A stretch of DNA of 20,000 nt, from the NCBI GenBank assembly GCA_000934665.2, contig JYFJ02001950.1, positions 45,848 through 65,847 on the forward strand. Reading direction: 5' to 3'. The notes under the pieces were generated by a model. It was not told the DNA's origin. It saw only the letters and a list, made by a program, of their open reading frames with translations, and did not search any database. Shown piece by piece: positions 2 through 19,585 of the stretch; the first letter of the stretch is position 1, and every line of letters starts with the position of its first letter. Source of the stretch: Catajapyx aquilonaris. Taxonomy: Eukaryota. A program made the position numbers and the translations under genes.

Positions 2-1905
2 TCAAAGGAATCAGAGAGTAGCAGCTCGGAGGAGGAGGAAACCAGTTCGGCCAGCGAATCCGAGGAGGAGGAAGAGGAGGTGGCACCACCGCCTCCGAAG
101 GAGAAGGCCAAGAGCGAGCGAGAGCTGTCCAAAACGGACATCGGGCCGCTGCTGGCCAGGAGCGCCAATGCTCGGGACAGCGGAACCAAAAAGGACGACG
201 TACCGCCTCCGTCCCCTTATTCCACTAGGCCTAGAGGGTCCGTCAGTAGTACGGGTTCCAGTTACACGCGAAACGACCCGGCGCCTGCTGCTTCGTCGTC
301 GTCGACGTACGGAGGTGAGCGTGAAAATAGTTACGCAAGTCGGTACGGACTGAGAGACCGAGACAACGACAGAGACAGAGACACGTACGGAACTAGAGAC
401 AGCGGCAGCAGCACTTACGGGTCGAGCGCTAGAGACACGAACGCGTACGGATCTCGAGACTACGGCACGTCTAGAGACAAGCCGGACTATTCGAGCGGTA
501 TTACCCGGAGTAGAACCACCGGCGGAAGCTTGTACGGGCGGGACGAACCGACGTCGACCACCGAAAGTAGCCGGTACCCGTTGACCAGCAAGTACGCTCG
601 CGCCAGGGCAGCCGCGGTGGAGGAAGAGCCTCCTCCGACGTCCCGGTACACAAGCCGGTTCCTAAACCGCAGCAAGAGTTCCGCTGCCATCGCTCCGGAC
701 AAAGAGGAAGAGGAGGAAGAGGAGAAACCAGCGTCGCGACGGCTGTCCGGAGACGACACCATGTATCCGAGTGGAAGGTCTCGGTACACGGCCCTGAAGG
801 ACCGCCGGTCCAGAGTGGCTCGTAGCAGAAGCTCGCACGACCTCGGCTTGCCGGACGAGGAGGAGCCGGAAGCAAGCACCGGTGGATCGTCGTACCTGAG
901 CCGGTACGGCGCCGGAAAGACCGCGTTGAAATCTAGGGAGAACTCCCCGGAGAAAGCAGACAAGGACGGCGCGAGCGGGTCGTCGTCTCTGAGTAGCTGG
1001 GCTCGGTACCTGAAGAACAAGTACGGCAGCCGTACCAAGGACGGCGTCGGGGCCACCCCGTCTGCGTCGGCCACGTCGGTGTCGTCTGCTGGCACAGCTT
1101 CGAGCGGCACCGCCGGACAGCAAGTGCCACGAAGCCGCAGCTCTCTGGCGTTGGGGTTGCCGTCCCGTACGGCAAGTATCGAAAGCTCTGACGACGACCA
1201 AAAAAACTCGCCTACCTCCCCCACTTCCCATACAGCAGCAGGTTTCGGCGATTTACCTAGAAACCAGTACCTGCAGAAAAGGCGGCTCCTTTTTAAGATC
1301 GGAAGTCGGGGGAGCGAACCGGGTTATTTCACTTGGCCGCGAGGAGTAGCCGTGGGACCGGACAACACGATCGTGGTTGCAGACTCGAGCAACCATCGCG
1401 TCCAGGTGTTCGACGACACCGGGACTTTCGTGAAGGAGTTCGGGACGTACGGTAATGCAGAGGGCGAGTTCGATTGCTTGGCGGGCGTGGCAGTCAACCG
1501 GATCGGACAGTACATCATAGCCGACCGGTACAACCACCGGATACAAGTGTTCGATCCCTCAGGCAGATTCTTGCGAGCGTTCGGAAGCCAGGGAAGCTCC
1601 GACGGTCGCTTTAACTACCCTTGGGGCATCACCACCGATGCACTAGGGTTCTTGTACGTTTGTGATAAGGAAAACCACAGGGTGCAGGTCTTTCAGTCGG
1701 ATGGCACCTTCGTGGGCAAGTTCTGCAGCATGGGCAACAAGTCGGGACAGCTGGAGCACCCGCATTACATCGCCGTCAGCAGTACAAACAGGGTCATCGT
1801 GTCCGACTCCCACAATCACCGCATTCAAATCTTTGACGTCAATGGGAAAGTGCTCACATCATTCGGCACTGAGGGGTCGGAGGAGGGACAGTTTAAGTTT
1901 CCCAG
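2..1905 (+). CDS. nhl-1: TRIM-NHL protein (nhl-1/abba/thin-like), large internal exon, 5' partial: S/R/E/Y-rich low-complexity region followed by NHL repeats 1-4 and the start of repeat 5
   Basis: Frame is open from position 2 (SKESESSSSEEEE...), so the GTG at 80 is not the start. NHL repeats: FTWPRGVAV..ADSSNHRVQVFD, FDCLAGVAV..ADRYNHRIQVFD, FNYPWGITT..CDKENHRVQVFQ, LEHPHYIAV..SDSHNHRIQIFD. The exon ends FKFP-AG|gtact (donor at 1906, phase 2). RING/B-box domains are expected upstream, outside the window. Orthology is recalled similarity only. Confidence 0.9.
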
Positions 1906-3957
1906 GTACTGTGACACTGCTGATGACATGATGACATACCTCCATGCCACCAACCACCAGCACCGCCTGTCTTTTATTGCTATTCTTTACCTGCAACTTC
2001 TTGATGATTACGATGATGATCATGGGGACGTCATCCTCTTGTGCATGCCTCATTATCTTCCCTTGCTCCTCCTCTGTGCATTGTTACCGCCGCTCTTTTA
2101 CGCCATTGCACACGTGCTGTTGCTGGTCGGCCTGATCTCTACGGCGGATCTTGCGTACCGGTGCGGGGTCGTGGGTTGCCCAGTCCGATAAAATAATAAC
2201 CGTGTGTCTCATAATTTAGCTGACATCCGTATAGCATACGCCCAGAAGTTCTGTTGACACCCTGAAAATCATGGGAGGAGATTTGCGCCGCTTTTAATTT
2301 TTAAAACAAATTTAAACCAATACACGGGTGTGAGCTAAATTTTTTCACAAGCTGCACTGTAACTCGGAACACACTGAGCAGAAAAAGGGGGTCGGGATGG
2401 GGACGATGTAATTCAGTGGCCGCCACTTAATCTGCTACTTACAAGTATTGGGGGCAGCATGTCGCAAAGCGGGTTGCAAAGTGCGGTCGTAAAATGACGA
2501 GGAAAGGTACAGTACACGTAAGGGTTCTCTTTACGAGTCAATAAAAAATATATACGCTGCTTGTGCACCGTGTGTGTCGTCTTCTCTCTTTTTTTGCCAA
2601 AATAAGAAAAGGAAGCTCCTTGCTTAATTTTGTAGCAAACTTTCTGAAACTTTCGAGAAGCAATTACTTGTTGCCTTATATCCGTGCCAAGTCTTTTCCA
2701 CTGCATGATCAAAGGACAAAATAGGTAGCAGATTAAGCCAAAGCCCACTGTTAGACAGAGAGAGCAACTAAGCATCGCATTTCACACTTGCAAGATTGTT
2801 TCGGAGCAATACCCGGATCAAGTACACAGTCTTTGTACTAATCACTTCCGATTGGATCTGTAAAGAGTTTGAATGTATTGGTTCACTTTCTTCTAGGTCT
2901 GTCGCCCATTAAAATCGATCGTGTGAATTTGTAAGATATGTTTTCATTCTTTGGCATTCATTGTTTCTACACAACCCTTGTCGTATCCCTTGTTTCCGTC
3001 CCTCCATCATTTTTCTTTGGTAGACCATGTTGTTGTTGTCGTCAGTGATTGTCGTTTGTATTTTCTGGGTGGCGTACTGGCTGCATGTTGTTGAAACAAC
3101 AATTATTCGGACACAGACAGACAGACAGTACGGCGCTTAGTTCGATCGGGGAAAGAAAATATTACATTGTTGTCCATTAATGTGTACTTTTCCCTTGCAG
3201 CTAAACCGAACGAGGCTCCTGTACTGTGTAATATTCAGAGAGTTGTGGGGGAGAATGTCACATTTCACGTATACACACTTGCCTCTGATATGTACTCCTC
3301 AAAAAAATAGTGTGGTTTGCAGAAAAAAATGTGAATTATAATAACCACTCTCTAGGAGTGTTGCATTTTCTTGCATGTATTTTTTGCTCTCCACTTAAGT
3401 AGCATCGGTTTGTTGGATCGTATGACTCACGTGCATATTTCTTAAAAAACTTTCACGCAGCGTTTCTCAGACTTTCCAAAGGTATTGATCCGACTATTAT
3501 TTAAACACAAAAACGCAGTGGGCTTCACTTAATCTACTATCGGCAGGCATATAGTAATGACTCCTAAAAGTGTCGACAGTGCTTTTTTTCCACATCGAAT
3601 ACTCTTTTTGAACCCTGTTTGTACCGATTCAATTTTTTGTCTTTTTGTGAACTAATCTCTAATGTGTGCAGCATCCTTTCCCCACACCCTGCTTACAATT
3701 TTTATCAAATAACGTTGATCATTGCTTGCTTTTTTTCCAGGAAGTGATATACAAAACCAATCATAGCTCTCTCAATAAACGTTAATTAACTCTCCTGGCA
3801 CAAAAATTAATGAAGGCACTCAACAAAATGAATGCGAATAATTTTTTGAGCTAACTTCCACTCGGGTGGGATTTCTCTCTATGCAGCATGTAACTAAACA
3901 GGCCACTTTAAAACTGAGTGCTTTTTTTGTGTTAAATATTCCAGTGCATTTGGCTTG

Positions 3958-4065: not shown

Positions 4066-4222
4066 TTACCCTCTTGTCAACTTGATGCTTGGCCAGCAGA
4101 TAAAGTGAGCCTCTTTAAAATTTTTGGGGATGTTGAGAATCCTGCGTGTAAGTCAACTATTTGTCATTCAACCCAATACTGTTGTACGCTGACGTACCTC
4201 TTTCTCTTTTGTGTGTGTCCAG

Positions 4223-4436
4223 AGGGGTAGCTGTCGACGACCAGGGCTACATCTTCGTGGGGGACTCGGGAAACAACCGCATCCAAATCTTCCATCCGGA
4301 CGGCAACTTCCTGCGAGCATTCGGCTGCTGGGGATCGGGGGACGGAGAGTTCAAGGGACTGGAGGACCTCGCCGTCATGTCCAATGGCAGCATCCTGGTG
4401 TGCGACAGGGAGAACCACCGAATTCAGGTCTTCTAA
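4223..4436 (+). CDS. nhl-1: TRIM-NHL protein terminal exon (rest of NHL repeat 5 and repeat 6)
   Basis: Pyrimidine tract ctctttctcttttgtgtgtgtccag ends at 4222. AG+A restores FPR|GVAVDDQGYIFVGDSGNNRIQIFH...CDRENHRIQVF, with stop TAA at 4434-4436. Confidence 0.93.
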
Positions 4437-10091: not shown

Positions 10092-11004
10092 TGTGGGAAG
10101 CCCTTTCTGAATCCCGCGACAGCAAAAGTGCATTAGAGGTAATGACGCTAGCAATATGGGCTTCCCCCACTTTCTGCTTGCTTGCTTACTGGCCTGGAAA
10201 TGAAAAGGAAGGTAGTGCCGATATAATACTCTGGGAGCTCCTGATGATGATGTACTGTGGGTGGAGATCGATTCACCTTTCCAAGCAGTGCTTCAAACTG
10301 GGGATGCTGATCCGAGCAGGTTCAGTATGCATTCCCATTACAGTCGGGATGGGAGTGACACATGTACAGAGTTGAGTCAGCAAAATATACAAAGACGTAG
10401 AATTTCCCAATTTTAGTCAGCCCAGCCTGAATGTAAACATCGGTTTGTAAACGGCGCACTTTGGAGCCTCCAGTCTCTTGTTACGTATCTGTTTCATTAC
10501 TGTAAATAATTTATATGTACCGCAAATTATCATGTGGGATGGCCGCAAAAGGGGGCGTTTGGGAAACATAGGCTCGTTGTCGCGGTTCGGTTAGGTGCCT
10601 GTGTTTGCGTTTACGTGACCCAAACCCTGGTTTTACAAAATGATGTGAGTGACCCTAGGGTTGAGCCTAGTCAATAATGGAAAGCACCTGGGGAGCTTTG
10701 CGGATTTTAGTGCTGTGCAGGGACGCAACAATGGTGGTTTTGGGAGTGGTTGGGGTTGCGGAATTAATCAGCTTTTTTTGTCTTGTTAAGAGAGGTGTAA
10801 AATCTATCAGAAAAAGTTTTGGCCACTTTTGACACAGTTTTCCCTTCATTTTTGGCCGAAACTTTTTGTGACAGAATTATAGTAGCCTACATGTCCTGGC
10901 TCCAGTCGTGTTGTGATTTGGGTGTGTCAAATAAGCAGAGTGAAACAACAGAACTTTTCTTTAATGAATATAACACCTTGAAACTGCACTCGATGCTTAA
11001 TTAA

Positions 11005-11010
11005 TTTATT
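11005..11010 (-). promoter_or_regulatory. Candidate polyadenylation signal of the NIT-GC gene
   Basis: AATAAA on the - strand (tttatt on +), ~650 nt after the stop, followed by GT/T-rich sequence on the - strand. Confidence 0.45.
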
Positions 11011-11658: not shown

Positions 11659-11817
11659 TTACGTGGGACTCGTCACGTCATCCACCTCGATTTCTAGAAT
11701 CTCGCGAAGAAATTCCGGTTCCGTGTCGTCCATGAATCCGGGCGTATCCATCTCCACAGAGCGAGTAATTCCTCCGTCCTTTCCGACCAACCAGAAGGTG
11801 TCCATTGCACCCTTTCC
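11659..11817 (-). CDS. NIT-GC terminal exon 13
   Basis: ttttatcatag| acceptor. [52 protein letters not shown], then stop TAA (11661-11659). Confidence 0.93.
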   Translation of the reverse strand, partial: GKGAMDTFWLVGKDGGITRSVEMDTPGFMDDTEPEFLREILEIEVDDVTSPT

Positions 11818-14800
11818 CTATGATAAAAAGAGTGATGCAATCGCATTAGGAAAACTTGTTAAACAAAGAGTGAACACTGAACAATTTAGCATATACCTTA
11901 ATGTCAGTCTTGCCTCTGTGCTCCACAATGTATCCGCCGAGTTCATCCAGAGCCGTCTTGGTCTCCAACGTCAAATGAATCTTCATGGCTGAGATATCCG
12001 CATTAACCTTTGACCTCCACTGACTAATGGCAATGGTGATACTTTACCTTCTCCTGTTGACTCCATTCTGGACGCGGTGTTGATAGTGTCTCCAAAGAGG
12101 CAGTACCTGGGCATCCTTGTGCCGACAACCCCTGCGACGCATGGTCCTGTGTTGATGCCCACCCGGATCTGGATGTGGTGACCTCTCCGGTGAGGTATCT
12201 CGTAGTGCTGGATCCCACTTATCAAGTCCAGTGCCATCGTGGCTATCTCGCCGGCGTGTTTGTTGCCTACAAGTGGGGCCGAAACAAGGTACAAGTAATT
12301 ATTGGGGTCAAGCAGTAGATTTATAGCGGTGTCCACTTACCATTCCTCTGGGGGATGCCTGACACGACCATGTAGGCGTCGCCGATGGTTTCGACTTTGT
12401 ACACGTCGTAATGCTCCAGACGGGAGTCGAACAGCTTGTACAGAGAATTCAGGAGGCCCACCACCTGCGTATACAGTATATTATACAAGTGGAGTTGAAC
12501 AATTGGCGGAATTTTTGCCCAATGCACTTGTCCAGAGGACACAAAAGACCAGCTCTAGCCCAATTACATGACTGATCATGGATTGAAAATATTCGTCTTA
12601 TTTATTGAATGTTGTCACTTGTCAACAATAAACATAGCAGCAAGATTAATATTTTGGTGTTTGGAAGAAAATGCACAATAATTCCGTTGGCCTAAATAAT
12701 TTTGAGTGTTACATTGGCTGAGCTGTCTTTCAGCGAAAATTGTTCGGGAAAAGCTTTATGTAACCCTCATAATCAAACCACTCAGCCAAAAAATTCACTT
12801 GCTCATACATCTACAGGTTTTAGATTTCGATGCATTGTTTATGCAGCTGTGGCTTTTTACTACATATATTCATATTTTTCGCGATATTAATTTCATGTGA
12901 ACAAATATTGTTGCATTCAAAATTAATTATTTAAATGCGGAAAGTAAGCGGGAGTTAGTTTCCATCCTGTATGTGCTGTATATGATGCTTGCTCGTCTAA
13001 AGTTTAGACAAACATGCATCATTTATAGCATACTCTAAAATATTCAAAATCTACTACCCAGTAGCGAGACGGAGAGGCGTAGTGGCATGTTAACTATGAT
13101 GCACCACAGAACCTTGTAAACTGTGTCAACAAGTTCAAATTAATTGTTCTAGTACGGTAATCCAAATAATGCATTCTCGTTAAAAAAATTTATCCAAGAC
13201 CCTATCATTTCGTATGAAATCAGTTTACCCCTCGCCATTTCCAGAGCGAATTTTTTTTGTATTAAAGGATGCCCAGACTGTAATACAGTACTTGTGGTGT
13301 TGGGCAGTAGGTGTGCCGAAGTGCGCGTTATCCAGATCGCACTGCTTCAGGCCATCCAGTTCGGCCTCGTATGCCACAGGAACAGACAAGACGGAGTGTG
13401 GGTTAGCTAACTGCCAGGATATGAAAATGGCGTGGAAAAGCAGCAGAGATGCCTAGCTGGAGTGACAGTTTGTTCCAGTAAATGAGTGAAAGCGGATTTC
13501 AGTTGCAAGTGCTTATGAAAGTCTCCTATTTAATTAAAATATAATTGTCATTTCGTTATAAAATTTTACTTTAAGTTTCGATCTCATTACGAAGAAAGCA
13601 GTCTCAGAAGTGAAAGAAGTGTCGCAGGCTGCAGCGACGCGACGTTTAAATAGTAAATATGAGTATTTTATTGGTGCTAATTATCTCAGTAAGGAGGATG
13701 AGATATATTCACAAAATAATGATCTTAAAATGCCCAAGGGTTCACCCTAATGTTTGTCTGAATATAGCTACTAATAGCTGCGTACTATCGCCAAAACATT
13801 AGACAACGATGATATTATAATAATTATGGCAATAGAGTTACTTGGGCAATGTATTAAAATAATAGTGAACTTGTTACAGTTTTACCTACGCAATATGATA
13901 GGGCTCACAGCAATGCGTAATACTAGCTTGGAGCTTCGTGGAGTTTTAGTCCGAAGTATATATAATCGTTGCATAATTTTGTTATTATAATTTTTTCAAA
14001 ACTCACATTTTGCAATGCTCTGGTGCGGAAATGTAAACTGTATGATACTACAGCTTTAGTTTTACCTAGAGTTTTACAAACTCAGCGCATCTGTTTACGT
14101 AAAATATATACCTCCTGCGGGAAAACGATAATTTAACTCTGGGAACTTTTGCACAAAATATATAGCGTTTGATTTAGCCTTGTATTTCGTATTTGCAGTC
14201 TGCACTGACAACAATCCAGGCTAGAGCGATGTTAATAATTTTTAACACCCATTATTTGAAGCGTGGTATGCTGTATTTTTTGTTATTGTCGCATTGATGT
14301 ATTGCAAGTACGAGATTATACATGTAACAGTATAATTATGCACATCATGTCCAGCTGTAAATGACATCTTACGTTCCCTTTGTGATGAGAACGGACCATC
14401 AAGATCTGCTGTTGCTTGGATCGTCATCTGGCAGTGTAATAGTACTGAATACAATCCACTGACATCACGTATTACATTTTTAAATAGCTTTTCTTTTACA
14501 AAGAGACCATTATTTTTGAAACATACCTCCAGAGGAGAACTGGAGGCAGAAAGGCGAGTGAATCCGACAATGTCACTGAAGTAGACCGTCCCGGATTCAA
14601 AGGCTTCTGCCGGAACCTGTCGGATTCAAATGTGTGTCAGTAAGCTCATAGGGTAACACATCCTACACACGAATCAAACGGCTGGTTCTCTGAAAGAATG
14701 AGAAAAAGGACCTGTTTTTTCTGCTTGAGCTGACGCGCCACGGCCGCTGGGAGCATCTGGCACAGGAGCCTGTCGCTTCGACGCTTCTCCTGGCGCAGTT

Positions 14801-17800
14801 TCTCGCTCTTTACCGACAGGGTTGCTGCGAATGCCTGCCGGGAATAAGGAAAATCGGGTTTTATATATACGCAATACAGCAGGCATCACACGGCTGATGG
14901 CGTCTCAGTCGCGCCCCAACTGATGACACTCTGCCTGGAAGCGGAATTGCTGGGAACAAAAGTCTCTCACTTTTTGATATAGGCTATAGGGCTAAGTTGA
15001 AAGGAATCTGAAAGATCCTAAATTAACTACGGTAATTTCCTCTTATAAATTCGCACAAGCAAAGCTGTATAGTGGTGGAAATTAAACGATAAGCATAAGT
15101 ATTGCCGCCTGGCCGTGTAAAAGAAAAGCTCCGCCAGACGGCAATACTTGTACTAATCCATTAATTTTCACCACTGTACTCTGTACCACACTCAGAAATG
15201 GTTCAATACCGTCAGTCCGTTGTAATTGGATATGGCCAATTAGGCTATGCTGGTAGTCTTATTTCTTCAGACGGCAAAATCGGTTGTTAGGGCATGTCAT
15301 TTAAGGTTGTGTAATCATACTTATTTGAACCTATCGTGATCAGTTCGTGAGGACCAATACCAGTAATATGAAGGCTAAAAATATCCGCTGAGAAGGCTCG
15401 TCTTGTTTTTCAAGCAACGTTCATTACTCGGGGGCCATTTCCATGGCGACAGTAGATTATTTTCCGTACCTGCACAGTGATGGTTATATTTTTAACCATG
15501 AAGATTATGGCCGGTCCGATGACCAATGTGAGTAAGAGGAGGCTGATGGCGATGCTTTGCTGCTGGGTGGCGGCTAGAATGTCCAGGTGTACTTGCATCC
15601 TTTAAAAAAATCGTCCAGTACTTGGATTCATAGTTACATAGCATTAAATTCGCGACGTACATGATCAGATCCTTCAGCTTCCATTGGTAACCCCGAAGCT
15701 CGTCGGTGTAGGAGGTCATTCCGTTGTAATACTCGTCAGCAAGGGTCAAGTTCGGTGCTCGAGCATTATTTTGATAGATTTGCTCCTTGTTGTTCATTAA
15801 CTTATTGTACGAGCCAAACTTGGCGATGAAGGTTTCATACTTGCCCATTATGTCCAACGAGAAATGTTGGGCCGCGTTGAGGTAGTCTTGTGCCAGCGAA
15901 TCGTGTCGTATGAACTTAATGAAGCTGGGCATGCTCAATCCACCTTTTCCAAAATAGTACAGTCCGTACACCATAGAGATGCTCAAATTCTCTATGCAGC
16001 GGATCATGTTTTGAAACGCAATCAAGTGCCTGAAAGTTTGGCTGCCATGTAGGCATATATTTTTTATATAAATTCGCAAAAGATTATGCAAAACGATCCA
16101 AGTCCAAAAAACAATCCGTTTCCTTGTACATTACAGCCTCTTAGGGAAATTTTCGAATAAAGAAAATTGGGCAATTCATCAAATTCTCCTCAAATCATGG
16201 CGACTTTGATTGTTCTGCATTTTTTGTCTTCGTATACAACCTCCAGACAGTAGATGTGGATCCCTTTCTGATTCTGGTAGTGAGCTGGTCCAAAATGAGG
16301 TCGTTGGCAATGTTGTACCACTGCATCTCTTCAAGAGCCGTATGGTCTGCTCTGGTTAAATCTTTCCTGAAACAATCTCGTTAATGAGAAAATTGCGCGT
16401 GTGTATATACTGTAGGAGAGTCGTGTTTACGTACGTTATTTCCAATATTCCTCTCCGGTTTTTTCTACGCGTGAAGTTAGCGAGCTGCTTTAGTTTACAA
16501 TTAGCGTAAAAGGGAAAGAGATATTTTGTTTCATATACTTACTGGAACGAGTCCAAATGAAACGATAAGGAGCTCTTGCTTCTGAAAATGCTGTTCCAAG
16601 TTGATGACGACGTATTCAGTGATTCTGACATTTTTTGCATGGCTATGTCTGTTGTGGTGAAAGTTGATTCCAAGTCCGTCCTGAAAGAAATTCTACTTGG
16701 CGCTTTATACTCATTTCTTTGCAAATCGCAGAGGTAACGTATAAAGTGCCCCATTTTTTCACAAATATTTACACACTCCTGAATGCATTACTAGTTTACG
16801 ACCATATCGAAAATGCTACATAGCCATGTATATCGCGTGATTCTATCTAGGCTCACTCTAATATTTAAGCGTGTAATAAGCAGATTTAATAAATGCGCAG
16901 AGTTTGATGCAGGCATGCATATATTATGCTCTGATTGGATACGTAATAATGCACTTTCTTAATTAAAGCGTTTCTCGGAAGAATCTCATATGTCAAGTGA
17001 CAACAATTTTCCAGGAAACAAAAAAAGTGCCCATGGGTTATACTAATTGCTTTGGCCAGTCTGTTTTATATGTTAGTGTATATGATACACACTTGCATTC
17101 AACTATTCAAATTAGACACTATAATGCTATTTTAAATTATCATAATATTATTTTGAAATTCTTGTGATTTTTCCGGAATTATCACAAAAACTACCTTCTT
17201 TTTATGGAAATACATGCTTATATGCATTGATTCATCGATCACACCAATTTCCTGATCATCTGGGAGGATAGAACGTCCTCTAATCAGATACACGTGTATT
17301 ATTGCGGTGGACCATCGTGTAGATTGTAGAGGAACCGGACGACTGATAAAACTTCAAGATGCTGTTCCTTTTCCTATGCATGAGACTGAGGTTTCAGTTT
17401 TATCGACACACACTACAATCCTGTACTACACAAAATTGTAACATGTACTGCATGTATCACTTCGAGGCGTGCCAAACTTTAAATTGTAATTCTGCATGAA
17501 AATCTTGCAGTAATGAAAATCTTCCAGTAAACTTTGTAAGTCACATGAATATCTGGCTTACTTTCGTCCAATGTATGAGGCTGACAGAAAGCCTTTCAGG
17601 AAGGTAATATACATACCGCTACGTGAATATTTCTGGCGCGAGTATAGTGAGACTGATTAGCCTTGAATGCCTTAACATGTTTCATGATGAACATCAACGA
17701 CATGTCCTGGGGTGGTGCTTAGATAATTTGGGAGTATACCATGTTTTACAAGATACTCCTGAAGCCTTCTAATCCTATGATTTCATGAAAAATCTCACAT

Positions 17801-19143
17801 GTCACCACTGATATGTGCTGGGATTCTTCCGGGAAATCACAAAGGTTGGAATGATCTGATATTATTTTCCCTTCAATATCTGCAACAACAGTGGAGTTTT
17901 TTTCAGAAATAGGAGATGAGCATTGGATGGAGGGCTTCCGAAAGTATGTACGGTATTACTACCCTTAACTCATTTTTTTCAAATTTTATGACATATGGGG
18001 TTATTCCGAGAAACGCTTCACTGAATTATTTGGAGTGTTTCCCAATTGAAGTGGTTTCCAGCAATATTTTAAATAAACCTTCTCTTTCAACTGCCTCAAT
18101 TAATATTTAATATTATATTTTACTATTCATTACTCTCCCTATACTTTTTCAGTAACAATAATATATTTTACTGACATCACCAAAACCTCAATTGAGCTAA
18201 AAATGTAATTCACTACATGAGGACCACTGCTACATAATTTAGAGGACTGCATCAATGAGTTTCGCTAAAAATTGTGCATGAACAGAGTAGTTTACTGCTT
18301 CAGTGCGCCATTGGTAAAAACTTTCCTGTAAAATACGATGGATTGCTCTCTCCAGTAGCGCATGCGCACTCGTCCTCTTCCGCTACACATCGGACGAGTA
18401 ATGCGCCTTCACGACTGGAGAGAGTAATCAATCAAGTTTTAACATTTGATATTCCACGCTGTATATACTATCCTTATTGCAGATTCCAACTCATATCACA
18501 GCCTATTATTTACCCTCCAGTACTTCACTGAATCCCTCAAGTGTTGTGACGATCGCACTGACCTGTTTCCATCCGTGAAAATATAATAGGCCACATCGCC
18601 TCTTTCGCTTTGCAAAGCCGTCAGCAATCTCCCAATCTCAACAGTCGTGTCAATCTGCAATAATATAAAAGATAGTATAGTGATATCTTTGTGTGTGTGT
18701 GAATAGTAGAAAGCGAGAGAAATGCACCCATCACACGCCACCTCTCTTTCTATCTCTTTGGATTCCCCGCGAAATATGACGGCAGATCCCATCGTAATGG
18801 TGTTCTGCACAAGCAGAGCCGCTATGGGAATGAAAGGCAGGATGATCATCTGCAATAGCTGGACTCTCTTGCCCCACTGGGAGAGAGGATTGGGTCGACA
18901 CATTCTGTTTCTCAAGGATATCACCGAAGACCCGTCTCCATTAGAGGGTGTCCTTCTGGTTCACACCGGTACAGGCACAAAATTTGTTGATAAAAATGTT
19001 GGGAACATGGACAAATCGGAAAGTTCTTACCCGCCGAGTGTGGAGAGTTCTCTGTCAGATGCGTTGTAACTGTGATGAGAGCAGCGTTCCATTGTATCTC
19101 CGAGAGTATGGCCTGCTTTGGCAGGCGTTACTTTCAACGGCAT
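11659..19143 (-). CDS. NIT-domain-type two-TM guanylyl cyclase (NIT-GC), whole gene model, 13 coding exons, 662 aa
   Basis: complement(join(19031-19143,18742-18955,18563-18654,16543-16680,16241-16366,15661-16029,15470-15599,14712-14834,14527-14616,12341-12464,12048-12266,11897-11988,11659-11817)) = 1989 nt. All introns are GT-AG and there is no internal stop. Domain order: TM1, NIT-like helical region (LQSERG), TM2, signalling helix ([14 protein letters not shown]), class III cyclase domain. Confidence 0.88.
11897..11988 (-). CDS. NIT-GC exon 12, cyclase domain
   Basis: [31 protein letters not shown], after a 59-nt intron. Donor AAG|gtatat. Confidence 0.93.
12048..12266 (-). CDS. NIT-GC exon 11, cyclase domain
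   Basis: [14 protein letters not shown]...[40 protein letters not shown] with the GTP-specifying Cys and catalytic Asn/Arg. Confidence 0.96.
12341..12464 (-). CDS. NIT-GC exon 10, cyclase domain
   Basis: [41 protein letters not shown] with the GTP-specifying Glu and second metal-binding Asp. Donor |gtaagt. Confidence 0.96.
14527..14616 (-). CDS. NIT-GC exon 9, cyclase domain start
   Basis: [30 protein letters not shown] with the first metal-binding Asp. Donor GAG|gtatgt. Confidence 0.95.
14712..14834 (-). CDS. NIT-GC exon 8, coiled-coil/signalling helix
   Basis: [41 protein letters not shown], the typical pre-catalytic LL.QMLP..VA..L motif. 123 nt, phase 0-0, in a different frame from track ORF 14674-14889. 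Confidence 0.92.
15070..15176. mobile_element. Tc1/mariner-like MITE, 107 bp, in NIT-GC intron 7
   Basis: ~44-bp imperfect inverted arms (tagtggtggaaattaa...aagtattgccgcctggc / gccagacggcaatactt...ttaattttcaccactg) flanked by TA at 15068-69 and 15177-78. Confidence 0.72.
15470..15599 (-). CDS. NIT-GC exon 7, second transmembrane helix
   Basis: tttttttaaag| acceptor. [43 protein letters not shown]. Donor CAG|gtacgg. Confidence 0.88.
15661..16029 (-). CDS. NIT-GC exon 6 (NIT-like domain, C-terminal half)
   Basis: actttcag| acceptor. [31 protein letters not shown]...[23 protein letters not shown]. Donor |gtacgt; 369 nt. Lies inside track ORF 15492-16091. Confidence 0.88.
16241..16366 (-). CDS. 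NIT-GC exon 5 (NIT-like domain)
   Basis: gtttcag| acceptor. [41 protein letters not shown]. Donor AG|gttgta; 126 nt, phase 2-2. Not in the ORF track. Confidence 0.82.
16543..16680 (-). CDS. NIT-GC exon 4 (NIT-like domain)
   Basis: tttctttcag| acceptor. [45 protein letters not shown]. Donor |gtaagt; 138 nt, phase 2-2. Confidence 0.82.
18337..18433. repeat. Imperfect inverted repeat / hairpin in NIT-GC intron 3
   Basis: Outer arms gattgctctctccagt (18341-18356) / actggagagagtaatc (18414-18429) match 15/16. Inner arms actcgtcc / ggacgagt. Confidence 0.75.
18563..18654 (-). CDS. NIT-GC exon 3, start of NIT-like domain
   Basis: ttattgcag| acceptor. [30 protein letters not shown] contains the LQxERG motif. 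Donor AG|gtcagt. Confidence 0.85.
18742..18955 (-). CDS. NIT-GC exon 2, first transmembrane helix
   Basis: ccag| acceptor. [71 protein letters not shown]. Weak donor |gtggcg. Confidence 0.82.
19031..19143 (-). CDS. NIT-GC coding exon 1 (probable start, [37 protein letters not shown])
   Basis: Acceptor cttacag| four bases before the ATG (19143-19141). Donor GG|gtaag at 19030; phase 2 joins the next exon in frame. No recognisable motif, so the start is less certain. Confidence 0.65.
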
Positions 19144-19220: not shown

Positions 19221-19585
19221 CAGGGTGTTTCCTGTAATTCGGGACAGACTTCTAGGATGTGTAGGGGATGCCTAGAGAAGCAATTTGGGATAGGACACCA
19301 ATGGTCGGAAACCCGTCCCAAATTAGCTAGAAAGCCTCAAATTGTAGCAATATTTCTTATATTTGTCAGATGAAATTGTTTATAACAGCTATAAACAATG
19401 AGCACAATAGAAAACACAACAATAATGGATTGTTACAACAATACAATGGGATGACAATGGGCCTTGGAGGCTCCGTAGCTCCATAGTGATGGGTTTCCGA
19501 CTATGGGTGTCCTATTCCAAATTGCTTCTCTAAAGCATCCCCTACACATCCTAGAAGTCTGTCCCGAATTACAATCTCCACCCTA
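19221..19585. mobile_element. MITE with ~100-bp terminal inverted repeats (CAGGGTG end, Tc1/mariner-like)
   Basis: Arms ~19221-19320 and ~19486-19585, including a perfect 39-bp inverted match (19233-19271 vs 19535-19573). AT-rich interior with acaat(g/a) repeats. TA target duplication is not clean. Confidence 0.8.

What the first reader, a model, noticed from the sequence alone, without database searches (positions are those of the whole stretch)
11659..19143. Intact animal receptor guanylyl cyclase with a bacterial-type NIT sensor layout and no kinase-homology domain
Seen: 13 phase-compatible exons give TM1 - long helical region starting LQSERG - TM2 - signalling helix - cyclase domain with all catalytic residues (SDIVGFT, GDAY, NTASR) and the Glu/Cys guanine-specificity pair (KVETIG, RYCLFG). 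Established: canonical animal receptor GCs have one TM and a kinase-homology domain, and soluble GCs use H-NOX. NIT is a bacterial nitrate/nitrite-sensing domain (NasR, some chemoreceptors), and NIT-GCs have been reported in invertebrates such as Platynereis in connection with NO signalling. Inference: this is a probably active homodimeric cGMP sensor with chemoreceptor-like two-TM topology, from a family I know of no functional work on in arthropods.
Basis: partly seen in the sequence, partly recalled or inferred. Interest (0 to 1): 0.72.

Follow-up and report, generated by a model that had tools for sequence, protein, structure and literature searches.

The report
Intact arthropod NIT-domain guanylyl cyclase gene
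This is a complete 13-exon animal gene for a membrane receptor that joins an outside nitrate/nitrite-type (NIT) sensor directly to an inside cGMP-making enzyme; it is real and looks functional, but it belongs to a family already described in many invertebrates, including arthropods.

Summary
On the minus strand, 19143-11659, 13 GT..AG exons join into one open frame of 645 aa. The layout is TM1, a helical ectodomain starting LQSERG, TM2, a signalling helix, then a class III cyclase with every catalytic and guanine-specifying residue. There is no kinase-homology domain.

The ectodomain is a NIT domain:
- Pfam NIT matches exon 6 alone, below cutoff.
- All 15 long relatives scanned carry NIT at E<=0.01, 13 of them above the cutoff.
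- A relative's ectodomain folds onto NasR (VIA Z 28.1, next 11).

One contig of a same-species run joins exons 6 and 7 exactly where predicted.

The nearest relatives (45-48% identity) are predicted proteins of insects and crustaceans.

The TM-NIT-TM-cyclase family was published in 2020 (PMC7400543) and noted in the lobster genome. One annelid member makes cGMP in response to an NO donor. So this is a new member of a known kind.

Open point: the sensor keeps the counterpart of NasR Arg50 but apparently not of Arg176. It also has Gln where 41 of 48 relatives have Arg, so the ligand is not settled.

The parts
19031..19143 (-). Exon 1: ATG at 19143, aa 1-37, cytoplasmic N-terminal tail. Weakest part of the model.
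   Evidence: Read by hand. The donor GT follows 19031, and the frame joins exon 2. No relative aligns to most of it.
18742..18904 (-). Exon 2: holds TM1 (aa 52-70, window 18808-18864).
   Evidence: Profile match E 6.7e-13. Junction found. Hydropathy peak 2.29.
18563..18654 (-). Exon 3: start of the NIT domain, helix 1 with LQSERG (E109, and R110 at 18601-18603).
   Evidence: Profile match E 8.9e-9. Among relatives, Q is kept in 27 of 34, E in 26 of 34 and R in 28 of 34.
16543..16680 (-). Exon 4: NIT helices 2-3 (F..TD motif). An alternative in-frame acceptor lies at 16692.
   Evidence: Profile match E 0.003. The two acceptors score 48.8 and 49.1. It aligns with relatives.
16241..16366 (-). Exon 5: NIT helix 4. 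The Q169 codon spans the exon 4/5 junction.
   Evidence: Profile match E 3.6e-10. tblastn of 5 of the 6 relatives whose rows were printed hits it. R is found in 41 of 48 relatives at the Q169 column.
15661..16029 (-). Exon 6: second four-helix bundle of NIT (R221, E224, N225).
   Evidence: Pfam NIT E 6.3e-4, 20.6 bits, profile positions 117-234 of 239. Profile match E 9.4e-43. 179 relatives at E<=1e-3. AF2 pLDDT 93.8. NasR TMq 0.73 but E 1.8. In the Atlas, 25 of 30 hits fall in the NIT set.
15470..15599 (-). Exon 7: holds TM2 (aa 350-368, window 15497-15553).
   Evidence: Profile match E 5.6e-8. Hydropathy peak 2.66. One contig of run X5 joins it to exon 6, skipping exactly the 61-nt intron.
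14712..14834 (-). Exon 8: signalling helix / dimerisation coiled coil.
   Evidence: Pfam HNOBA E 2.7e-6, but only profile positions 181-216 of 216. Profile match E 2.1e-17.
14527..14616 (-). Exon 9: start of the cyclase domain, with metal-binding Asp433 (FSDIVGFT).
   Evidence: Pfam Guanylate_cyc E 3.7e-4. Profile match E 2.6e-14. Residue position.
12341..12464 (-). Exon 10: cyclase, with Glu473 (guanine specificity) and Asp477 (metal).
   Evidence: Pfam E 4.5e-13. It aligns to GC-C and NPR1, and [13 protein letters not shown] is identical.
12048..12266 (-). Exon 11: cyclase, with Arg543, Cys545 (guanine specificity), Asn552 and Arg556 (transition state).
   Evidence: Pfam E 8.4e-26. Matches GC-C at 3.1e-24 and NPR1 at 5.7e-23. 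[18 protein letters not shown] is shared.
11897..11988 (-). Exon 12: cyclase C-terminal part.
   Evidence: Profile match E 2e-10. Junctions found.
11659..11817 (-). Exon 13: end of the cyclase domain, C-terminal tail and stop codon (11661-11659).
   Evidence: Profile match E 2.4e-7. Translation ends here. AATAAA at 11010 and ATTAAA at 10965 lie downstream.

Best explanation
This is an intact, spliced gene for a member of the metazoan NIT-domain guanylyl cyclase family (NIT-GC) in an arthropod, probably an insect.

The 645-aa protein has these parts in order:
- a short cytoplasmic N-terminus;
- TM1;
- an extracellular or luminal NIT domain of about 240 aa, a double four-helix bundle;
- TM2;
- almost immediately, a signalling helix;
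- a class III cyclase domain.

Shown here: the gene structure, the domain order, the NIT fold in the family, and the full set of catalytic and guanine-specifying residues in a single chain.

Inferred: the protein acts as a homodimer, like GC-A and GC-C, with two symmetric active sites. A ligand-induced change in the NIT bundles passes through TM2 and the coiled coil to the cyclase and raises cGMP, much as a two-TM bacterial chemoreceptor or sensor kinase signals.

The most likely ligand class is NO or an NO-derived nitrogen oxide (nitrite or nitrate). This rests on analogy with Platynereis NIT-GC1. The ligand was not tested here and the binding pocket differs from that of NasR.
For: Gene structure.
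- 13 GT..AG exons give one 645-aa frame that aligns end to end with a profile of 19 relatives (832 bits).
- Pfam on single exon ORFs finds NIT (E 6.3e-4), the HNOBA tail (2.7e-6) and Guanylate_cyc on three ORFs (down to 8.4e-26).

Relatives.
- Exon 6 finds 179 relatives at E<=1e-3.
- Of the 15 long ones scanned, all 15 have NIT at E<=0.01, 13 of them above the curated cutoff. 12 of 15 have NIT plus the HNOBA tail plus Guanylate_cyc. The other 3 are N-terminal fragments.

Fold.
- Relative P0033 is 96 of 276 aligned residues identical to the model. Its AF2 model has pLDDT 92.9.
- Its only Foldseek hits at E<=1e-3 are the two chains of NasR, 4akk (1.6e-5, TMq 0.78).
- VIA gives Z 28.1, rmsd 3.6, 266 aligned residues. 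The next entry scores Z 11.0.

Cyclase.
- The cyclase exons match GC-C (8fx4) and NPR1 (9bcv) best, with identical catalytic motifs.
- The key residues are D433, D477, E473, R543, C545, N552 and R556.

Expression.
- One contig of same-species run X5 (168 nt, at least 99% alike) skips exactly the predicted 61-nt intron 6. DNA run X1 shows no such joint.

Literature.
- The TM-NIT-TM-GC family is reported in animals including arthropods (PMC7400543, passages).
- Platynereis NIT-GC1 makes cGMP after an NO donor, and this needs its NIT domain (bioRxiv 10.1101/2023.08.02.551600, passages).
Against: - The whole spliced protein could not be sent to Pfam or to structure prediction. NIT on the window's own sequence therefore rests on one exon, which scores below the Pfam cutoff (20.6 against 24.9 bits).
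- That exon's fold match to NasR is not significant on its own (E 1.8).
- A profile of the family's NIT regions did not find NasR by sequence.
- Transcript evidence is one low-depth contig (depth 2.2) from a run whose kind is not on record. It covers one junction only. It also carries a 1-nt deletion at 15511 relative to the genome.
- The join of exons 1-7 to the cyclase exons is supported by homology only.
- The pocket differs from NasR. In the stretch that the structural alignment allows for NasR Arg176, neither the relative nor this protein has Arg or Lys.
- This protein has Gln169 where 41 of 48 relatives have Arg.
- No activity, ligand or dimer was tested.
Confidence: 0.9

Rival explanations
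1. The protein is a NIT-GC by descent, but its NIT domain does not sense nitrate or nitrite as NasR does. It binds another ligand (NO itself, another anion, or a protein), or serves only as a dimerisation scaffold for a constitutively or intracellularly regulated cyclase.
For: - NasR needs Arg50 and Arg176 for its nitrate response (PMC9581486, passages).
- VIA aligns 266 residues, model 13-286 onto chain 9-278. The model-to-chain offset can therefore only lie between 0 and 12.
- In that window the relative reads AIENIGVSAVYGIN and this protein [14 protein letters not shown], with no Arg or Lys.
- Across relatives, the residue after the near-invariant Glu (135 of 140) is N in 74, S in 24, H in 18 and C in 11 of 139. 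Arg is not among the six commonest residues.
- Gln169 replaces an Arg kept in 41 of 48 relatives.
Against: - The Arg50 counterpart (R110) and the LQ.ERG motif are kept.
- Arg221 lies one turn before Glu224 on the same helix, is kept in 109 of 138 relatives, and could take over the role of Arg176.
- Moroz et al. state that the critical residues are present in placozoan NIT domains.
- The equivalence to NasR residues comes from alignment ranges, not from a residue-level superposition.
Confidence: 0.3
2. The protein works only as a heterodimer with a paralogous cyclase subunit, as soluble guanylyl cyclases do, rather than as a homodimer.
For: Animals often hold several NIT-GC paralogues: 15 in Platynereis and 12 in Trichoplax. 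Two distinct Penaeus japonicus relatives appear among the hits.
Against: All residues that the two sGC subunits contribute separately are present in this single chain. The closest solved cyclases are the homodimeric GC-C and NPR1. No genome is held for this window, so paralogues could not be sought.
Confidence: 0.1
3. The locus is a non-functional or silent gene copy whose open frame is kept by chance or by recent origin.
For: No RNA run is on record as holding it. The only spliced contig has a 1-nt deletion in exon 7. Gln sits at a mostly conserved Arg position.
Against: - There is no stop or frameshift over 1938 nt in 13 exons.
- All 12 introns have GT..AG ends.
- Every catalytic residue is intact.
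- A spliced contig at least 99% alike exists, while the DNA run shows no intron-less copy.
Confidence: 0.04

Closest known systems
Metazoan NIT-domain guanylyl cyclases (NIT-GC): Moroz et al. 2020, PMC7400543; Platynereis NIT-GC1 and NIT-GC2, bioRxiv 10.1101/2023.08.02.551600
   Same: Same architecture: TM, NIT (PF08376), TM, short coiled coil, then a class III guanylyl cyclase, with no kinase-homology domain. The protein matches a profile of such proteins end to end. The family is reported in arthropods and in the lobster genome (PMC8221624).
   Different: Only 45-48% identical to the nearest full-length cluster representatives: Neodiprion, Schistocerca and Penaeus. It has Gln169 where most relatives have Arg. 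I made no direct comparison with the Platynereis or placozoan sequences, which were not in hand.
Predicted insect and crustacean proteins. Examples: XP_046596117.1 (Neodiprion), XP_047111602.1 (Schistocerca piceifrons), KAJ4430764.1 (Periplaneta americana), XP_042875536.1 (Penaeus japonicus), B0WDM1_CULQU (Culex)
   Same: Colinear over nearly the full length, with the same three Pfam families.
   Different: These are computer predictions, mostly named 'uncharacterized protein' or after unrelated receptor cyclases. None is the same protein; the best identity is 48%, or 51% over the NIT part alone.
NasR NIT domain (PDB 4akk), the bacterial nitrate/nitrite sensor
   Same: Double four-helix-bundle fold (Z 28.1 for a family member). 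The helix-1 motif LQ..RG with the Arg50 counterpart is present.
   Different: - Sequence identity is 14-16%.
- NasR is soluble and coupled to an ANTAR RNA-binding domain. This protein is membrane-anchored by two TM helices and coupled to a cyclase.
- No Arg sits at the place expected for Arg176.
Receptor guanylyl cyclases GC-A/NPR1 and GC-C
   Same: Closest solved cyclase domains, with identical catalytic and specificity motifs and a preceding signalling helix.
   Different: Those have one TM helix, an ANF-receptor-type ectodomain and a kinase-homology domain. None of these features is present here.
Naegleria NIT-TM-cyclase receptor (earlier scan note e1-675363)
   Same: A NIT sensor coupled through the membrane to a class III cyclase in a eukaryote.
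   Different: It is reported there as an adenylyl cyclase of an amoeba. I did not compare it here.

Membership tests
Metazoan NIT-GC | NIT domain (PF08376) in the region between the two TM helices | tested here: met
   Exon 6 alone scores NIT E 6.3e-4, 20.6 bits against a cutoff of 24.9, covering profile positions 117-234 of 239. All 15 long relatives have NIT, 13 of them above the cutoff. The model aligns colinearly with them at 832 bits. In the Atlas, 25 of 30 hits fall in the NIT set. The whole spliced ectodomain could not be scanned directly.
Metazoan NIT-GC | NasR-like double four-helix-bundle fold of the ectodomain | tested here: met
   Tested on relative P0033: Foldseek finds only NasR at E<=1e-3 (1.6e-5), and VIA gives Z 28.1 against 11.0 for the next entry. 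On the window's own exon 6, NasR has the best TMq (0.73) but E 1.8, so that test is inconclusive alone.
Metazoan NIT-GC | Two transmembrane helices flanking NIT | tested here: met
   Kyte-Doolittle 19-residue peaks of 2.29 (aa 52-70) and 2.66 (aa 350-368), and no others reaching 1.6. No dedicated TM predictor was available.
Metazoan NIT-GC | C-terminal class III cyclase with Glu/Cys guanine specificity and a full catalytic set | tested here: met
   Residues D433, E473, D477, R543, C545, N552 and R556. The motifs are identical to GC-C and NPR1.
Metazoan NIT-GC | No kinase-homology domain between the membrane and the cyclase | tested here: met
   TM2 ends at aa 368 and the signalling-helix exon starts at aa 378. 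No kinase family appeared in any of the 13 ORF translations scanned.
NasR-type nitrate sensor (function) | Pocket arginines equivalent to NasR Arg50 and Arg176 | tested here: inconclusive
   The Arg50 counterpart, R110, is present and kept in 28 of 34 relatives. There is no Arg or Lys in the stretch allowed for Arg176 by the VIA ranges. The mapping is indirect, and R221 lies one turn away.
Canonical receptor guanylyl cyclase (GC-A to GC-G type) | ANF-receptor ectodomain, single TM helix, kinase-homology domain | tested here: not met
   No ANF_receptor or kinase hit in the exon ORFs. There are two hydrophobic segments, and the ectodomain is NIT.
Soluble guanylyl cyclase | N-terminal H-NOX haem domain | tested here: not met
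   Only the last 36 positions of the HNOBA profile (the coiled coil) match. There is no HNOB hit.

The most novel reading that the evidence does not exclude
Arthropod NIT-GCs, this one included, have a remodelled sensor pocket. The second arginine that NasR needs for nitrate (Arg176) is replaced by Asn/Ser/His next to an invariant Glu. In this protein that Asn forms an N-L-S glycosylation sequon, and this protein has further lost the family's Arg169. They would then not be nitrate sensors at all, but would detect a different extracellular cue and report it as cGMP.
Probability: 0.2. Interest if true: 0.5.

Novelty: new member of a known kind. Interest (0 to 1): 0.3.

Why it matters
NIT-GCs are a recently recognised second route from nitrogen oxides to cGMP in animals, alongside soluble guanylyl cyclase. 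In the papers I searched, only one member, from an annelid, has been tested.

A clean, full-length arthropod gene model gives a ready construct for asking whether this route exists in arthropods and which ligand it reads: NO, nitrite, nitrate or something else. The pocket differences noted here (N225, Q169) give specific residues to test.

As a genomic finding it is ordinary. The family, its layout and its presence in arthropods are in print, and relatives are already predicted in many insect and crustacean genomes.

Tried and rejected
- Whole genome: none is held for this window, so paralogues and copy number could not be examined.
- The search for homologous proteins with exon 6, longer proteins: 88 candidates, none at E<=0.001. 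The full-library HMMER search then found 179.
- Extra exons in the long intron 3. The ORFs at 18239-18431, 17746-17955 and 17132-17353 have no family hit or no profile support. That stretch is repeat-rich. I rejected them as exons.
- Sequence route to a solved NIT structure. A profile of 22 NIT-region sequences against PDB sequences gave no NasR and nothing better than E 0.063. P0148 alone gave only cyclases among the 60 of its 63 matches that were listed.
- RNA evidence. No RNA holder is listed among the 5 runs. Four DNA runs of one sample, possibly the source of the window, hold the stretch. Only run X5, whose kind is not on record, gave one spliced contig. Cover was absent over the other exons.
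- Rfam on the whole window: 0 matches.
- Residue-level alignment to NasR: not obtainable with the tools. I used alignment ranges instead.
- Earlier scan notes: none for this genome. A word search gave one note, on Naegleria.
- Complex prediction for the homodimer: not run.

Full report
**What is in the sequence**

All coding signal between 11659 and 19143 lies on the minus strand. I scanned 13 stop-to-stop ORF translations against Pfam. The hits were:
- NIT (PF08376): E 6.3e-4, 20.6 bits against a cutoff of 24.9, profile positions 117-234 of 239, on the ORF at 15492-16130.
- The last 36 positions of HNOBA (PF07701): E 2.7e-6, on 14646-14885.
- Guanylate_cyc (PF00211) on three ORFs: 3.7e-4, 4.5e-13 and 8.4e-26.
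- The other eight ORFs gave nothing, or only chance-level hits with E>=0.04.

**Relatives**

No genome is held for the window. A word-indexed search with the NIT exon found nothing. The full HMMER search found 179 proteins at E<=1e-3, 49 at E<=1e-10 and one at E<=1e-30.

I scanned 15 long hits against Pfam:
- All 15 have NIT at E<=0.01. 13 are above the curated cutoff; P0005 and P0045 are below.
- 12 carry NIT, the HNOBA tail and Guanylate_cyc together.
- The other three are N-terminal fragments.

I looked up source names for 20 of the hits; 18 carry a name. They are predicted proteins of:
- insects: Neodiprion, Orussus, Schistocerca, Periplaneta, Diploptera, Bemisia, Cloeon, Culex, Clunio and Arctopsyche;
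- a springtail, Folsomia;
- crustaceans: Penaeus, Amphibalanus and Lepeophtheirus;
- more distantly, Saccoglossus and Asterias.

Most are named 'uncharacterized protein' or after unrelated receptor cyclases.

**Gene model**

A profile of 19 relatives of 480-900 aa matched 12 minus-strand ORF pieces in colinear order. Eleven scored E<=2.4e-7 and one scored 0.003. All other pieces scored E>=2.8.

For each of the 11 junctions between these pieces I enumerated every in-frame GT..AG pair near the match ends (6-37 candidates per junction) and scored the joined peptides. Each best junction has a good donor and a good acceptor. Exon 1 and its junction were read by hand.

The 13 exons are:
- 19143-19031
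- 18904-18742
- 18654-18563
- 16680-16543
- 16366-16241
- 16029-15661
- 15599-15470
- 14834-14712
- 14616-14527
- 12464-12341
- 12266-12048
- 11988-11897
- 11817-11659

Together they give 1938 nt, or 645 aa, with one terminal stop. The protein aligns with the family profile over positions 14-620 of 628 at 832 bits.

The best full-length relatives are 48% identical (Neodiprion over 626 columns, and Schistocerca) and 45% identical (Penaeus japonicus). The cockroach fragment is 51% identical over the NIT part.

Weak points of the model:
- Exon 1 has essentially no homology support.
- Exon 4 has a second in-frame acceptor 12 nt upstream with an equal score.

**Transcript evidence**

Four DNA runs of one sample hold the stretch. 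No RNA run is listed. I laid a same-species run of unrecorded kind (X5) and one DNA run (X1) on the region.
- One X5 contig (168 nt, depth 2.2, at least 99% alike) covers 15687-15660 and 15598-15469 and skips 61 nt with CT..AC ends on the plus strand. This is exactly the predicted exon 6/exon 7 junction.
- X1 shows no such joint, so an intron-less DNA copy is unlikely.
- The contig lacks one base at 15511. At this depth I cannot tell an error from a variant.
- The join of the sensor half to the cyclase half is not covered by any read.

**Domains and topology**

Hydropathy gives two peaks only, at aa 52-70 and aa 350-368. Basic residues flank both on the sides that must be cytoplasmic. The roughly 240-aa region between them therefore faces outward.

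That region aligns motif by motif with relatives: LQ.ER.., F..TD, W, YN, VWR.L..YKN.LRAIE..G.

Fold evidence for NIT:
- The ectodomain of relative P0033 shares 96 of 276 aligned residues with the model. Its AF2 model has pLDDT 92.9.
- Foldseek finds only NasR (4akk, chains A and B) at E<=1e-3: 1.6e-5, TMq 0.78.
- VIA gives Z 28.1, rmsd 3.6 and 266 aligned residues. The next entry scores 11.0.
- The window's own exon 6 folds confidently (pLDDT 93.8). NasR gives its best TMq (0.73, rmsd 3.2), but at E 1.8. A lone four-helix bundle is not specific.
- A language-model look-up of exon 6 put 25 of 30 hits in the NIT set.

TM2 is followed within about 9 residues by the signalling-helix exon and then by the cyclase. 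No kinase-homology, ANF-receptor or H-NOX match exists.

**Cyclase**

Exons 10 and 11 match GC-C (8fx4) and NPR1 (9bcv) best, and [13 protein letters not shown] and [18 protein letters not shown] are shared. The key residues are:
- D433 and D477: metal binding.
- E473 and C545: guanine specificity.
- R543, N552 and R556: transition state.

That these positions define an active guanylyl cyclase, and that GC-A and GC-C act as homodimers, is established knowledge of class III cyclases. It was not tested here.

**Mechanism**

The most likely reading is a homodimeric, two-TM receptor. A ligand-dependent change in the outward NIT bundles would be passed through TM2 and the coiled coil to the cyclase.

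The ligand is inferred only. Platynereis NIT-GC1 makes cGMP after an NO donor, and this requires its NIT domain. The authors could not exclude nitrite or nitrate as the ligand (passages).

In NasR, Arg49, Arg50, Arg176 and Arg236 line the nitrate pocket, and the R50A and R176A changes abolish the response (PMC9581486, passages). Glu175 and Arg176 lie on helix 5 (PMC7496416, passages).

In this protein:
- The Arg50 counterpart is kept. R110 is an Arg in 28 of 34 relatives.
- The VIA alignment leaves only 8 model residues and 4 chain residues unaligned. The model-to-chain offset can therefore only lie between 0 and 12.
- In the stretch this allows for Arg176, the relative and this protein have no Arg or Lys.
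- Next to the near-invariant Glu224 (135 of 140), relatives have N, S, H or C.
- Arg221, one turn earlier, is kept in 109 of 138 relatives and might substitute.
- This protein has Gln169 where 41 of 48 relatives have Arg. The codon spans the exon 4/5 junction, and no alternative junction gives Arg.

These points leave the ligand open.

**Comparison with what is known**

- The family and its TM-NIT-TM-cyclase layout were described by Moroz et al. 2020, who list arthropods among its holders (PMC7400543, passages).
- The lobster genome paper mentions such cyclases (PMC8221624, passages).
- Three full-text searches found no functional study in an arthropod. The library lacks most subscription journals, and I read no supplements.
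- An earlier scan note reports a NIT-TM-cyclase receptor in Naegleria. I did not test it.

**Verdict**

The locus is a new member of a known kind.

Noticed in passing
window 2-2191 (+) and 4152-4436 (+): A neighbouring gene on the opposite strand, convergent with the cyclase gene, encodes a long Ser/Glu-rich region followed by NHL repeats (Pfam NHL 1.2e-38 and 3e-18). Its NHL part matches the NHL region of Drosophila Thin (TRIM32-like) at E 1.8e-140, which fits an insect or other arthropod origin.
   Followed up: partly
window 16934-18203 and 14902-15155: Word depth in DNA run X1 is 128-182 and 135 here, against about 23 elsewhere, with many short divergent contigs. This points to repeated elements inside introns 3 and 7.
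   Followed up: no
window 19222-19584: Inverted repeat with arms 19222-19271/19535-19584 (50 nt, 90%) and 19273-19341/19464-19532 (69 nt, 81%). It begins about 80 nt upstream of the ATG and looks like a MITE-type element. A second inverted repeat lies at 19752-19792/19868-19908.
   Followed up: no
window 15511: The only spliced contig (run X5, depth 2.2) lacks one base here, inside exon 7, relative to the genome. It could be an assembly error or a variant; this is not resolved.
   Followed up: no
window 16680-16692: Two in-frame acceptors for exon 4 lie 12 nt apart, differing by 4 residues, with equal profile scores. This could be alternative splicing or simply an ambiguous model.
   Followed up: partly
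proteins P0027 (5880 aa) and P0127 (1269 aa): Two very long library proteins match the exon 6 query in 8 and 6 separate stretches. They may be multi-copy NIT-like or coiled-coil proteins. I left them out of all alignments.
   Followed up: no
cluster of P0144 (Culex): The 50% cluster of the Culex relative also holds Ndc1 nucleoporin entries and fused predictions of 1166 and 1289 aa. In Culex the NIT-GC gene therefore seems to neighbour Ndc1 and to have been merged with it in some annotations.
   Followed up: no
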